Assembly: GCA_025451235.1 (NCBI GenBank)
Contig: JANWKT010000034.1
Coordinates: 77,014-141,013, forward strand
Direction: 5' to 3'
Length of the DNA: 64,000 nt
Source of the DNA: Flavobacteriales bacterium
Lineage (GTDB): Bacteria; Bacteroidota; Bacteroidia; CAIKAF01
Below are positions 38,682-43,102 of this stretch, in pieces. The position numbers and the translations under genes are program-made. The notes beneath the pieces are model-generated. The model ran no database searches. It was not told the origin of the DNA and worked only from the letters and a program-made list of their open reading frames with translations. Numbering within the stretch: position 1 is the stretch's first letter; every line of letters starts with the position of its first letter.

Positions 38682-39515
38682 TTAAACAAAAAGAACTACG
38701 ATGGCAATGATGGATAAAATAATGGCGAGGATGCCCAAAATAAGAGAAATAGTTACCCTGCTATCCTTAGTTCTTAAACCCGCCAGCGCCATAATAGAAC
38801 CAATGAACCCTTCTATTAAAGAAATACAACCAATGATAAATCCTATGACGTTGAGGGGGCTCCCAAAAAAACTAAAAATAAAGGCAAGCGTGGCTGAGAA
38901 CACAGCCAAAATAGTTACTACCAATATGGCCACTACAAAACCTCCTTGATCAGAGACTGGTCTTTGATCTGAATTAGTGGAAGGATTCGGACGATAAAAA
39001 TCACCGTTTTTTAAATGAATAACATCTACTCTTGAACTTGACACGACATACGTAGGACCATCAGGGTTGTTACATTTTTTATACTTGATCTCAGTATCCG
39101 TAATTTCGGAAACAAGTACTTCTATTTGTGTTCCATCCTTTAAAACGAGTAGATCACACTCCTCCGCATCTAATGCATTTTTTTTATCAACCGAAAGCGA
39201 ATTTCTTTGGATTGATTCCTTTCTAACAGTTCCATGTCCTGACTTCTCAGTCATTTTTTCCGTAATGAGCAGGTCATCCTTTAAAGAGTCGGTAGTAACT
39301 TGTGGACTTGCGGGTACAGAAAGTATGGCCGTTTCCAATTTGTTTTTTTTAATCAGATCCGAACGATGGTGATGGTCTCTCTTTGCATGGGATGTTTCGA
39401 TATGATATCCTGGTCGGTATCTTCTTTTTTCGATGGTAAGAGAACATGAAAAGAATGAAAAAGAAACCATTATCAAAAGAAAAACAGAAAATATTTTGTG
39501 TGGGGTACGTATCAT
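38682..39515 (-). CDS. Cassette paralog 4: lipoprotein with a post-lipobox 'EKRRYRPGYH' motif, a His/charge-rich linker, a two-Cys 'ECD...NG..I.....EI....IKYKKC..P.GP' domain and a C-terminal glycine-zipper multi-TM domain (DUF4190-like?)
   Basis: Lipobox FFSCS. The motif TIEKRRYRPGYH. A HAKRDHHHRSD segment. ECDLLVLKDGTQIEVLVSEITDTEIKYKKCNNPDGP. Three to four C-terminal TM helices with GxxxG/AxxxG spacing. Confidence 0.7.
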   Translation of the reverse strand: MIRTPHKIFSVFLLIMVSFSFFSCSLTIEKRRYRPGYHIETSHAKRDHHHRSDLIKKNKLETAILSVPASPQVTTDSLKDDLLITEKMTEKSGHGTVRKESIQRNSLSVDKKNALDAEECDLLVLKDGTQIEVLVSEITDTEIKYKKCNNPDGPTYVVSSSRVDVIHLKNGDFYRPNPSTNSDQRPVSDQGGFVVAILVVTILAVFSATLAFIFSFFGSPLNVIGFIIGCISLIEGFIGSIMALAGLRTKDSRVTISLILGILAIILSIIAIVVLFV

Positions 39516-39545
39516 CTCAGGTCTGTATACATTATTAAATCTGAT

Positions 39546-40367
39546 TTATGAAAATGCAATAATCATTCCAACAATAGAAAAAAGAAGGGCGCAAAATCCT
39601 AAAATAAGTATGAGTTTCACCTTGATGCTTTTTTCATCTCTTAATGCCCTAAAACCCATAATGATCGAAGTAGCGGAAAACAATGCGGCAAAAATGCAAA
39701 TAATAAAACCGATGGTATATAAAGGAAGAATAAAAAAAGACAGCATAAAGCCAATAAGAGCCAGGCTAAGTGCTATGATACTTATAATAAATCCGGCAGA
39801 TATATATTTTTTTGTTACGGGTTTATGTTCTTTAATAGGTTTATTGGGTTTAGGAGCAAAAGTATCACCGTTCTTCAGCAAAATATTCAATACATTATCC
39901 AATGAAAGATAATAAATGGGGCCCTCGGGCTCACCACATTTCCTGTACTTCACTTCGGTTTCCGAAATCTCAACGATCAAGGCCTGGATCTGATAACCAT
40001 TGATCATCACAATAACATCGCATTCTGCCGGTGGTGGATCCGTTTCAACCTTGTGTTCATTTAAAAAAGAGGCGCGATCCTGGTAGCGTGTCTTTGGTTC
40101 AGAAGAAGAACTGGTGATCACAGGATCAGATGGATCAACGGAGTCGTGTGCAGGAATGCACTGGGATCCTTTTAAAATAACTACATTTTCGGATGGGAGT
40201 TCATTTCCGGTGGTATTTAGTTTTTGTATGGTGCGATTCTTCATTCGGTGATGAACAATATCCATATGGTAGCCAGGTCGGTATTTTCTTTTCTCAAAAC
40301 TAACAGAACAAGAACTCAGACCAACGACCAGGATCAAAAGAAATGCTCCTAAAATCAATCTGTTCAT
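39546..40367 (-). CDS. Cassette paralog 3 of the KR(R/K)YRPGYH lipoprotein family
   Basis: Lipobox LSSCS. SFEKRKYRPGYHMDIVHH. ECDVIVMINGYQIQALIVEISETEVKYRKCGEPEGP. A C-terminal glycine-zipper TM domain. The start is taken at the internal Met (MNRLILG). Confidence 0.7.
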   Translation of the reverse strand: MNRLILGAFLLILVVGLSSCSVSFEKRKYRPGYHMDIVHHRMKNRTIQKLNTTGNELPSENVVILKGSQCIPAHDSVDPSDPVITSSSSEPKTRYQDRASFLNEHKVETDPPPAECDVIVMINGYQIQALIVEISETEVKYRKCGEPEGPIYYLSLDNVLNILLKNGDTFAPKPNKPIKEHKPVTKKYISAGFIISIIALSLALIGFMLSFFILPLYTIGFIICIFAALFSATSIIMGFRALRDEKSIKVKLILILGFCALLFSIVGMIIAFS

Positions 40368-40413
40368 TTTATAAAATATTATTTCTCCCATTTTCTCTCA
40401 CTTATTCTATTAC

Positions 40414-41199
40414 TCAATTCTTTTTTGCAGGGGTGGTTACTCCCAGGATAATGCCTATAATTCCCAATACCACTCCAATTGCTAAAAGAATGATCCCAAT
40501 TAATAACAATAAAATACCGCCCCAGCCCCCTCCTATCGAAGACAGACATAAAGCCAGGCCAGCAGCCAACACAACAATGGCTATCCCTCCAAACACCCAT
40601 GCCATTGCTCCCCGTGTACGGCGACCCTTTTCATGTTCTGAAGGCTCATACATCATTCGGTATTCTTTGTAAGGATCAATCACGCTGCCGTTCTTGAGCT
40701 TAATATCCCTGATCCTGTTCAAAGTGATAGGTGTTGGCTCGGCTTGATTATCTCCACAGTTTTTATAGGTAAGGGTACCTCCCCTTATCTCAATACCAGT
40801 AGCACGAATGATTTTACCATTCACTAGCCTGATCTCATCACATTCCTCATCGAGGTGTTGTTGGGTGATATCAAGAGAAGATAATACCTGTTTGGGTTTT
40901 TTATTTTTTTTCTCCTCCTTAGAATGATTGGTTCTCTGCTCCTGCCATTCATCGTTCCTGATATCCAAATCGACATTGGCAGAATGTTCTATGGTGGAAA
41001 CGGCAAACGTTGAAATGGTATCTTTTCTATCCTTCCTGCGTTCTTTTTGTACATGATATTCGAAAGATCTTTTTTTACTCACCATCTCTATATGGTATCC
41101 CGGTCTATATCTCCTTTTGTCGAAGCTAATAGAACAACTCGACAGTAGCATCAAAGAAATGAGAAGTAGAATTAACTGGGTAGGGTTTTTCATGTTCAA
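40414..41199 (-). CDS. Cassette paralog 2 of the KR(R/K)YRPGYH lipoprotein family
   Basis: Lipobox LSSCS. SFDKRRYRPGYH. ECDEIRLVNGKIIRATGIEIRGGTLTYKNCGDN. A C-terminal glycine-rich TM domain (GGWGGILLLLIGIILLAIGVVLGIIGIILG). It starts 3 bp after the stop of the small lipoprotein gene. Confidence 0.7.
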   Translation of the reverse strand: MNMKNPTQLILLLISLMLLSSCSISFDKRRYRPGYHIEMVSKKRSFEYHVQKERRKDRKDTISTFAVSTIEHSANVDLDIRNDEWQEQRTNHSKEEKKNKKPKQVLSSLDITQQHLDEECDEIRLVNGKIIRATGIEIRGGTLTYKNCGDNQAEPTPITLNRIRDIKLKNGSVIDPYKEYRMMYEPSEHEKGRRTRGAMAWVFGGIAIVVLAAGLALCLSSIGGGWGGILLLLIGIILLAIGVVLGIIGIILGVTTPAKKN

Positions 41200-41202
41200 T
41201 TT

Positions 41203-41610
41203 TTATTTTGTTCCGACAAATTCAAAATCCACTCCGGTACTGTCAAAATAACTACAACGCATATGGGTATACTCCACCATCGGTGTAACATTGGCACTAT
41301 AATACAAATTCGGATCGAAGGGGGTTTCCATATCCAGGGTAAGAAAGCTGGTGCCTCCATAAGCAAATCTGCCAATCGCCAGGTCCGTCATATAATAATC
41401 AGGATTCCCGCTTGAAGTAAAAAGGATGTCTACTTTATTTGCTCCGTTTTGAGTAATTGTGCATGTTCCATTCCCGGAATTAACCGGCAGGCTACCTCCT
41501 TCATAGGTGCCGGTGTATTCACCAATCACCATAGCAGGTGAAGTATCAAATTTACATCCAATAAGCAAAGGTGAAGTCAATAAAAGGATCAGCAGCGTCT
41601 TTTTCATCAT
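41203..41610 (-). CDS. Small 'CKFD' lipoprotein B, paralog of the 42631-43047 protein
   Basis: Lipobox LIGCKFD. Motifs shared with the other copy (TSSGNPDYY / TSTGNPTFY; C-terminal ...FEFVGTK / FEFDGKR). Confidence 0.65.
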   Translation of the reverse strand: MMKKTLLILLLTSPLLIGCKFDTSPAMVIGEYTGTYEGGSLPVNSGNGTCTITQNGANKVDILFTSSGNPDYYMTDLAIGRFAYGGTSFLTLDMETPFDPNLYYSANVTPMVEYTHMRCSYFDSTGVDFEFVGTK

Positions 41611-41711
41611 TTTAGTTTGGGTGCATTTGTAAATATAGATATTCTTAAAAACATAGCCATCAATTCTATTTAAAATATATAAGGTTGAGCCCCCCGGATC
41701 ATAAAGTCCAA

Positions 41712-42626
41712 TTATAAAAACACGATCATAATGGCCAAGGATGCCAATAATAATGCAATAAAACCCATTACAATCGCCAGAATAACTTTAACCGACTTTC
41801 CACTTCTCAATCCTGAAAAGCCCAATGAAAAACTGATGATGGATAAAAAAATGGTGGCAACCGCAATTCCAAATCCAATCCCTCCCATTGGGTTAGCCAA
41901 AAAACTAAAAACAAAAGCAATCAGGGCCAAGGATAATGAGATAATACTTAAAGCAAATCCGGCCTTACCTTTTCGTACCGGCCCCTCGTGGGGATTAATA
42001 TCCGGCAGATACCTATAGCCTGAATATCTGAGCAGCAAAGCAATGATCGCCATGATCAACGCTAGTCCTATGATAATAGCCCCTAAAATAATGTTCACTC
42101 CATACCAACCTCCTATTAAAGAGAACATCAAAATGCTCCCAATCAACAATGCAAAGGCCACACCCCCGGTGATCCAGGCCCAAACTCTTCTGCGTCTTTT
42201 ATTGTCGCCTAATGTTTCTTTGGGAGATGCACCCTGACCGACTTGGGTCGCTGATTTATTTTCTTGTTCTGGAGATATGGATCTTTCTTCCTTTTCATGT
42301 AGATCTATGCTGATATCCTCCCATTCAATATCCTCCGTATAAGTTTTTAGGACGGTCCTTGTTGCCGGGGTTGAATCTTTCAACTCTTCCTTGGTGGCGA
42401 TATCGGTGGGCTGCTCTGATTTCTGTTTTGTTTTCTCCATCCACTCATTATCTGGATTGTGTTTTACCTCATGATGCTTTGTTTTATTTACGTTTGGGCT
42501 TACCTGAACATAATACCCGGGCCGGTACCTTCTTTTTTCAACCTGTATCGAGCAAGAACATAACAATGCACAAAATGTCCAGCATACAAGTCGGATAAGC
42601 GAAATATTAAATAGTTGGTTCTTCAT
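41712..42626 (-). CDS. Cassette paralog 1 of the KRRYRPGY lipoprotein family, with a duplicated C-terminal glycine-zipper TM domain and no ECD-type domain
   Basis: Lipobox LCSCS. VEKRRYRPGYY. A long acidic/basic linker. An RRRR anchor, then two tandem TM modules (…LLRYSGYRY… and …FSGLRSGKSVKV…). The start is placed at the Met at 42626 (MKNQLFN...), 4 bp after the stop of the upstream small lipoprotein gene. The tracked ORF extends 18 codons further 5' into that gene. Confidence 0.65.
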   Translation of the reverse strand: MKNQLFNISLIRLVCWTFCALLCSCSIQVEKRRYRPGYYVQVSPNVNKTKHHEVKHNPDNEWMEKTKQKSEQPTDIATKEELKDSTPATRTVLKTYTEDIEWEDISIDLHEKEERSISPEQENKSATQVGQGASPKETLGDNKRRRRVWAWITGGVAFALLIGSILMFSLIGGWYGVNIILGAIIIGLALIMAIIALLLRYSGYRYLPDINPHEGPVRKGKAGFALSIISLSLALIAFVFSFLANPMGGIGFGIAVATIFLSIISFSLGFSGLRSGKSVKVILAIVMGFIALLLASLAIMIVFL

Positions 42627-42630
42627 GCTA

Positions 42631-43047
42631 TTATCTTTTACCATCAAATTCAAATGAGTAAATCGAATCTCCGTATGCACAATCTACCGTCCACTTTTTC
42701 CCTGAATAGGGATTAACCTCATATACATTGGCTGTAAAACTAATGTTAGAGGTAGATAATTCAATTTGAAACCAACTGATCCCAAAGCCATAATTCGCTC
42801 TTTTTACGGTAAGGCCATTCAGATAAAAGGTAGGGTTACCTGTTGAAGTAAGGACCATATTTAATTTACCATCGCCCGTTTCTGTAAATACCAGTTCACC
42901 ATCAGCATATGGAAAAGGTATGCCATTGGTGCTATAAAAATTACCATAATAGGTTCCTTCTGCAGTGTGGTCAAACTTACAACTGACAAAAAAGACAGAT
43001 GAGAAGAGTACAGTAACTATCAGAAAATTTTTCATAGAGACATTCAT
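42631..43047 (-). CDS. Small 'CKFD' lipoprotein A (138 aa), the first gene of the cassette
   Basis: Signal peptide/lipobox FVSCKFD. A beta-rich ~115-aa mature domain. It is paralogous to 41203-41610. Confidence 0.65.
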   Translation of the reverse strand: MNVSMKNFLIVTVLFSSVFFVSCKFDHTAEGTYYGNFYSTNGIPFPYADGELVFTETGDGKLNMVLTSTGNPTFYLNGLTVKRANYGFGISWFQIELSTSNISFTANVYEVNPYSGKKWTVDCAYGDSIYSFEFDGKR

Positions 43048-43078
43048 AATAATTCACCACAAAGATGTAGGGAATCTA

Positions 43079-43102
43079 GGGGTTAACCCTCGGGGTTAAC
43101 CA
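43079..43102. promoter_or_regulatory. Tandem palindromic sites, 2 x GGGTTAACC(C), spaced 13 bp centre-to-centre, in the promoter region of the lipoprotein cassette
   Basis: aGGGGTTAACCCtcGGGGTTAACCa lies 31-55 bp upstream of the start codon at 43047 (minus strand). Each unit is a 10-bp palindrome. An AT-rich inverted repeat ATTGTTAT-gctgcg-ATAACAAT lies at 43121-43142 between it and the relA stop. Confidence 0.4.

What the first reader, a model, noticed from the sequence alone, without database searches (positions are those of the whole stretch)
38682..43047. Compact cassette of four paralogous 'KR(R/K)YRPGYH' lipoproteins with glycine-zipper membrane tails plus two paralogous small 'CKFD' lipoproteins
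Six co-directional, tightly packed genes (gaps of 3-30 bp) lie between relA and fur.

Four of the genes encode proteins with the same architecture:
- An SPII lipobox (…SCS…).
- Then an essentially invariant motif S(I/V)(S/T/Q)(I/F/V)(E/D)KR(R/K)YRPGY(H/Y), starting at +2 from the lipidated Cys.
- Then a hypervariable linker rich in H/K/R/E/D, for example HAKRDHHHRSD and HMDIVHHRMK.
- Then, in three of the four, a conserved ~55-aa two-Cys module: ECD.(I/L)..(L/M).(N/D)G..I.A...EI......KY(K/R).CG.P.GP.
- Then a C-terminal block of 3-4 TM helices with GxxxG/AxxxG spacing, ending G(F/L)R(A/S)..(K/D)S. This block resembles small DUF4190-type membrane domains. It is duplicated in the 304-aa member.

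The first two of these genes are each preceded by a paralogous ~135-aa lipoprotein (CKFD lipobox; shared TS(S/T)GNP.(Y/F)Y and C-terminal FEF.G(K/R) motifs), with start and stop 3-4 bp apart. This implies translational coupling.

I cannot place the post-lipobox motif or the pairing with the small lipoproteins in any characterised family. The predicted topology is a periplasmic protein tethered at both ends. This topology, the His-rich variable linkers and the neighbouring fur suggest a metal- or stress-related envelope function. That functional guess is speculation. The fixed-N-motif, variable-middle design is also reminiscent of diversifying surface or sorting systems.
Basis: seen in the sequence. 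Interest (0 to 1): 0.85.

Follow-up and report, generated by a model that had tools for sequence, protein, structure and literature searches.

The report
Fast-evolving array of double-anchored envelope lipoproteins
Six real genes between relA and fur encode four copies of a widespread but unstudied Bacteroidota membrane lipoprotein, marked by a conserved motif just after the lipid-attachment cysteine, plus two small barrel lipoproteins found so far only in this clade; the function is unknown and the membrane topology is unresolved.

Summary
Six co-directional minus-strand genes (38682-43047) encode four paralogous large proteins and two paralogous small lipoproteins. None reaches a Pfam or NCBIfam cut-off.

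The large proteins are not a rare oddity. A full HMMER profile search found 7139 cluster representatives (1469 at E<=1e-10). The top 150 are almost all full-length, with the same parts:
- a canonical SPII lipobox;
- the motif C-[ST]-[IV]-[EQ]-K-R-x-[YH]-x-x-G-[YF]-[HY];
- a disordered linker;
- an SH3/Sm-like small beta-barrel with a Cys pair, which has no Pfam model;
- a DUF4190-like three-helix membrane tail, below threshold in relatives.

Three things are special to this clade:
- the tandem array;
- the 8-stranded barrel lipoproteins, always directly upstream of a large gene (8 of 8 across six loci);
- the divergence: 30-51% identity, against 90-93% for flanking RelA, Fur and PurA.

Best reading: lipidated periplasmic proteins also held in a membrane by a helical tail. 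This conflicts with the positive-inside rule. The Fur/metal idea has no support. Ordinary solitary relatives show no conserved neighbours. Interest is moderate: a new variant of a poorly known kind.

The parts
43076..43101 (.). Tandem 13-nt repeat CT(A/C)GGGGTTAACC carrying a GGGTTAACCC palindrome, about 45-60 bp upstream of s1. Candidate operator or promoter element of the cassette.
   Evidence: One search found the repeats. The same GGGTTAACCC(C)-TAGA element (one position differs in L005: GGGTTTACCCC) lies upstream of a cassette gene in L001, L005 and L006. It is absent in L015 and L019. Function is inferred only.
42631..43047 (-). s1, a small lipoprotein of 138 aa. The lipobox Cys23 lies in ...FVSC|KFD. 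The mature part is predicted to be an 8-stranded beta-barrel.
41712..42626 (-). L1, a large protein of 304 aa. Parts: lipobox Cys25; N-motif at 42510-42554; acidic/basic linker; no beta domain; glycine-rich hairpin at 42030-42185; DUF4190-like three-helix block at 41715-41963.
41203..41610 (-). s2, a small lipoprotein of 135 aa (lipobox ...LIGC|KFD). It is a paralogue of s1 at 35% identity.
40414..41193 (-). L2, a large protein of 259 aa. Parts: lipobox Cys20; N-motif at 41092-41136; linker; two-Cys small beta-barrel at 40687-40845; glycine-rich two-helix hairpin at 40426-40611 with basic residues at both ends.
39546..40391 (-). L3, a large protein of 281 aa. Parts: lipobox Cys28; N-motif at 40266-40310; disordered linker; two-Cys small beta-barrel at 39867-40025; three-helix tail at 39549-39806.
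   Evidence: AF2: five strands at residues 125-171 with pLDDT about 80; helices 192-219, 225-252 and 256-280 with pLDDT about 90; residues 29-120 below 50. Foldseek places the beta domain with Hfq/Sm/SH3-type barrels at E about 0.02.
38682..39515 (-). L4, a large protein of 277 aa. Parts: lipobox Cys24; N-motif at 39402-39446; His-rich linker; two-Cys small beta-barrel at 39003-39161; three-helix tail at 38685-38948.

Best explanation
The region is a clade-specific, fast-diverging tandem expansion of a widespread but uncharacterised Bacteroidota envelope-protein family, joined by two clade-specific small barrel lipoproteins.

**Large proteins (inferred mechanism)**
- Each is exported by Sec and cleaved and lipidated at the conserved lipobox Cys.
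- It stays membrane-bound at both ends: by the N-terminal acyl chains and by a C-terminal helical module. That module is either a DUF4190-like three-helix bundle or a glycine-rich hairpin.
- This holds a basic disordered linker and one SH3/Sm-like small beta-barrel, probably disulfide-bonded, close to the periplasmic face of the membrane.
- The invariant post-Cys element (...[EQ]KRxYxxGY[HY]...) is a self-contained module that is also fused to TM2-domain tails or to no tail at all. It most likely acts as a membrane-proximal docking or retention element rather than as an enzyme site.

**Small proteins (inferred)**
- They are periplasm-facing, calycin-like 8-stranded barrel lipoproteins.
- They are co-expressed with, and probably partner, the large protein encoded directly downstream.

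**Shown versus inferred**
- Shown: the genes, the modules, the family size, the synteny, the pairing, the divergence and the predicted folds.
- Inferred: lipidation, compartment, any s-L interaction and any physiological role. The likely role is envelope organisation or stress tolerance, in the manner of helical-hairpin lipoproteins such as SlyB and YfgH.
For: **Family and architecture**
- A profile search gave 7139 hits at E<=1e-3 and 1469 at E<=1e-10. The top 150 are nearly all full-length.
- The N-motif is present in 136 of 150, with K, R and G invariant.

**SPII signal** (130 members)
- The Cys sits at median position 21.
- The uncharged stretch before it has a median of 15 residues (IQR 13-16).
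- The n-region carries +1 to +2.
- Position -1 is S, G or A in 119 of 130, and -3 is hydrophobic.

**The hydrophilic part is outside the cytoplasm**
- The Cys pair is present in 158 of 172 beta domains.
- The same beta domain occurs as tandem repeats behind ordinary signal peptides with no membrane helix (P0073, P0030).
- It also occurs behind an SPI signal in front of an OMP-like barrel, next to an N-motif protein that carries a near-identical copy (L017).
- The N-motif is fused to bona fide TM2 domains (63 and 48 bits against a cut-off of 27.9). In metazoan TM2D proteins these follow a signal sequence and an extracellular region (PMC8714088).
- A signal-peptide-bearing thioredoxin-like gene sits beside the cassette in L001; a Redoxin-family gene occupies the same position on the JGI 3300050046 contig, whose sequence could not be read.

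**Folds**
- small beta-barrel plus three helices.
- 8-stranded barrel.

**Pairing and synteny**
-.

**Fast divergence**
- Cassette proteins are 30-51% identical. RelA is 90-91%, Fur 90-92% and PurA 92-93%.

**Precedent**
- Lipoproteins with a transmembrane helical hairpin plus a small beta domain are known: SlyB and YfgH (bioRxiv 10.64898/2025.12.22.696046).
Against: **Positive-inside rule**
- In the window proteins and in 111 relatives, K and R cluster on the linker side of the tail. The pre-helix flank has a mean of 2.7 K+R and the helix 2-3 loop a mean of 4.0.
- The helix 1-2 turn has none, and the C-terminus ends inside the last helix.
- For an inner-membrane bundle this predicts that the linker side is cytoplasmic. 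That is also the usual orientation of signal-less DUF4190 proteins (my own knowledge).

**Other points**
- A strongly basic stretch a few residues after a signal cleavage site is expected to hinder Sec export (established for E. coli; my own knowledge).
- The spacing between the Cys and KR varies: 3, 5, 7, 8 and up to about 15 residues. This argues against a classical +2/+3 Lol-avoidance signal.
- AF2 gives no structure for the motif.
- No evidence for an s-L complex could be obtained.
- Both AF2 models rest on very shallow alignments of 4-8 sequences.
Confidence: 0.45

Rival explanations
1. The N-terminal hydrophobic segment is an uncleaved N-out membrane anchor. The basic motif, the linker and the small beta-barrel are then cytoplasmic, as in signal-less DUF4190 proteins. 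These would be polytopic inner-membrane proteins with 4-6 helices and a cytoplasmic Sm/SH3-like domain. The conserved Cys pair would bind metal rather than form a disulfide.
For: - The positive-inside rule points this way consistently. All basic loops and flanks lie on the linker side, and none lie on the other side, in every window protein and in 111 relatives.
- Hairpins of the L2 type have K/R at both ends.
- The tail is DUF4190-like.
- The beta domain gives its best fold matches to Hfq/Sm proteins, which are cytoplasmic (E about 0.02, weak).
Against: - The N-terminus is a textbook SPII signal: positive n-region, an uncharged stretch of about 15 residues, and S, G or A at -1 before an invariant Cys. 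An N-out anchor should not carry +1 to +4 in its N-tail, and it has no need for a lipobox.
- The same beta domain occurs in secreted, signal-peptide proteins and in an OMP-like fusion.
- The Cys pair is conserved in 158 of 172 domains, with no further conserved metal ligands.
Confidence: 0.2
2. The proteins are outer-membrane lipoproteins whose helical hairpins insert into the outer membrane from the periplasmic side, as in SlyB and YfgH. They would oligomerise through small-xxx-small contacts to stabilise lipid or OMP domains under stress. The positive-inside rule does not apply in the outer membrane, and the basic flanks would bind phospholipid head groups of the inner leaflet.
For: - This would reconcile the lipobox, the periplasmic beta domain and the basic hairpin flanks.
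- The order of parts in L017 (lipobox, linker, hairpin, beta domain) and the glycine-rich hairpins of L2 and L1 recall glycine-zipper 2TM lipoproteins (bioRxiv 10.64898/2025.12.22.696046).
- The surrounding genes include stress genes: relA, fur and, in relatives, AhpC/thioredoxin-like genes.
Against: - No match to any glycine-zipper Pfam family, even at E<=1.
- The tails are long and very hydrophobic: three helices of 25-28 residues rich in I, L, F and V. This is unlike the Gly/Ala-rich SlyB hairpin (my own knowledge) and hard to reconcile with Lol transport.
- A three-helix tail would put the C-terminus in the LPS leaflet.
Confidence: 0.15
3. The cassette is a competition or defence island. 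The large proteins would be membrane-damaging effectors with hydrophobic hairpins, and the small barrel lipoproteins would be cognate immunity proteins. The pairs would diversify under conflict.
For: - s-L pairs occur as units.
- Divergence and gene turnover are extreme next to flanks that are 90% identical.
Against: - Typical family members are solitary, with unremarkable and varied gene neighbours and no partner.
- There is no toxin domain, no PADLOC or PHROG hit, and no relative in viral contigs.
- L005 has two large genes and no small one.
- The small gene precedes the large gene, which is not the usual effector-then-immunity order.
Confidence: 0.05
4. The cassette has a metal- or Fur-linked envelope function. 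His-rich linkers would bind metal and the cassette would belong to the Fur regulon.
For: - fur is adjacent.
- The linkers of L4 and L3 contain His runs.
Against: - His-richness is not a family feature: the positions after the motif are N, K, S or H, mixed.
- fur is 650 bp away with its own promoter-like TACATTTG.
- In relatives, a peptidase, a redoxin, an HTH gene or another lipoprotein gene lies between the cassette and fur.
- The conserved upstream palindrome GGGTTAACCC is GC-rich and unlike an AT-rich Fur box (the Fur-box comparison is from my own knowledge).
Confidence: 0.05

Closest known systems
DUF4190 (Pfam PF13828) membrane-domain proteins
   Same: - The tail has a hydrophobic hairpin with a central Pro/Gly turn, then a short basic loop (G-x-x-A-L-R/K...), then a last helix that ends the protein.
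- Full-length relatives of the window proteins score 28-34.5 bits on PF13828.
- One relative is named 'DUF4190 domain-containing protein' by NCBI.
   Different: - The window proteins give no PF13828 hit even at E<=1.
- DUF4190 has no known function.
- It normally follows cytoplasmic N-terminal regions without a signal peptide (my own knowledge). Here it follows a lipobox, a conserved motif and a Cys-pair beta-barrel.
SlyB / YfgH glycine-zipper 2TM outer-membrane lipoproteins
   Same: They share the overall architecture: a lipobox, a transmembrane alpha-helical hairpin with small-xxx-small spacing, and a small periplasmic beta domain. They are linked to stress (bioRxiv 10.64898/2025.12.22.696046). 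They are the best functional analogue for a lipoprotein that is also helically embedded.
   Different: - There is no sequence-family match.
- The tails here are far more hydrophobic and mostly have three helices.
- The beta domain is a five-stranded SH3/Sm-like barrel.
- The conserved post-Cys motif has no counterpart.
- The location, inner or outer membrane, is unknown.
Bacteroidota lipoprotein export signal (LES), C-X-K-(D/E)2-X
   Same: It is also a short conserved element immediately after the lipidated Cys of Bacteroidota lipoproteins, and it is known to decide their final location (PMC5080379).
   Different: - The LES is acidic and position-critical.
- The motif here is basic and aromatic (KRxYxxGY).
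- It is longer, about 12 residues.
- It tolerates variable spacing from the Cys of 3 to about 15 residues.
- Neither the large proteins nor the small CKFD proteins meet the LES definition.
TM2-domain proteins (Pfam PF05154; metazoan TM2D1-3)
   Same: - They share the design of signal sequence, divergent extracytoplasmic region and C-terminal pair of helices (PMC8714088).
- In Sphingobacteriales and Flavobacteriales MAGs the same N-motif is fused to true TM2 domains.
   Different: The window proteins carry no TM2 domain. The function of TM2 domains in bacteria is unknown.
Calycin-type small barrel lipoproteins (bacterial lipocalin-like proteins, BT_2261, nitrobindin/avidin folds)
   Different: - There is no sequence-family match.
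- The model confidence is only moderate (pLDDT 64.5).
- No ligand is known.
- The family was found only in this clade: five proteins in the word-index search, plus further copies seen in L006 and L019 (that search missed most relatives of the large family, so this is not a firm limit).
Leptospira LIC_13076 family / LA_0442-LA_0875 N-terminal domain (NCBIfam NF047624, NF047433)
   Same: The beta domain of relatives gives weak matches: up to 30.7 bits at E 2.6e-7.
   Different: These scores are far below the cut-offs of 110 and 43 bits. The Leptospira families are themselves uncharacterised, and the window proteins do not hit them.

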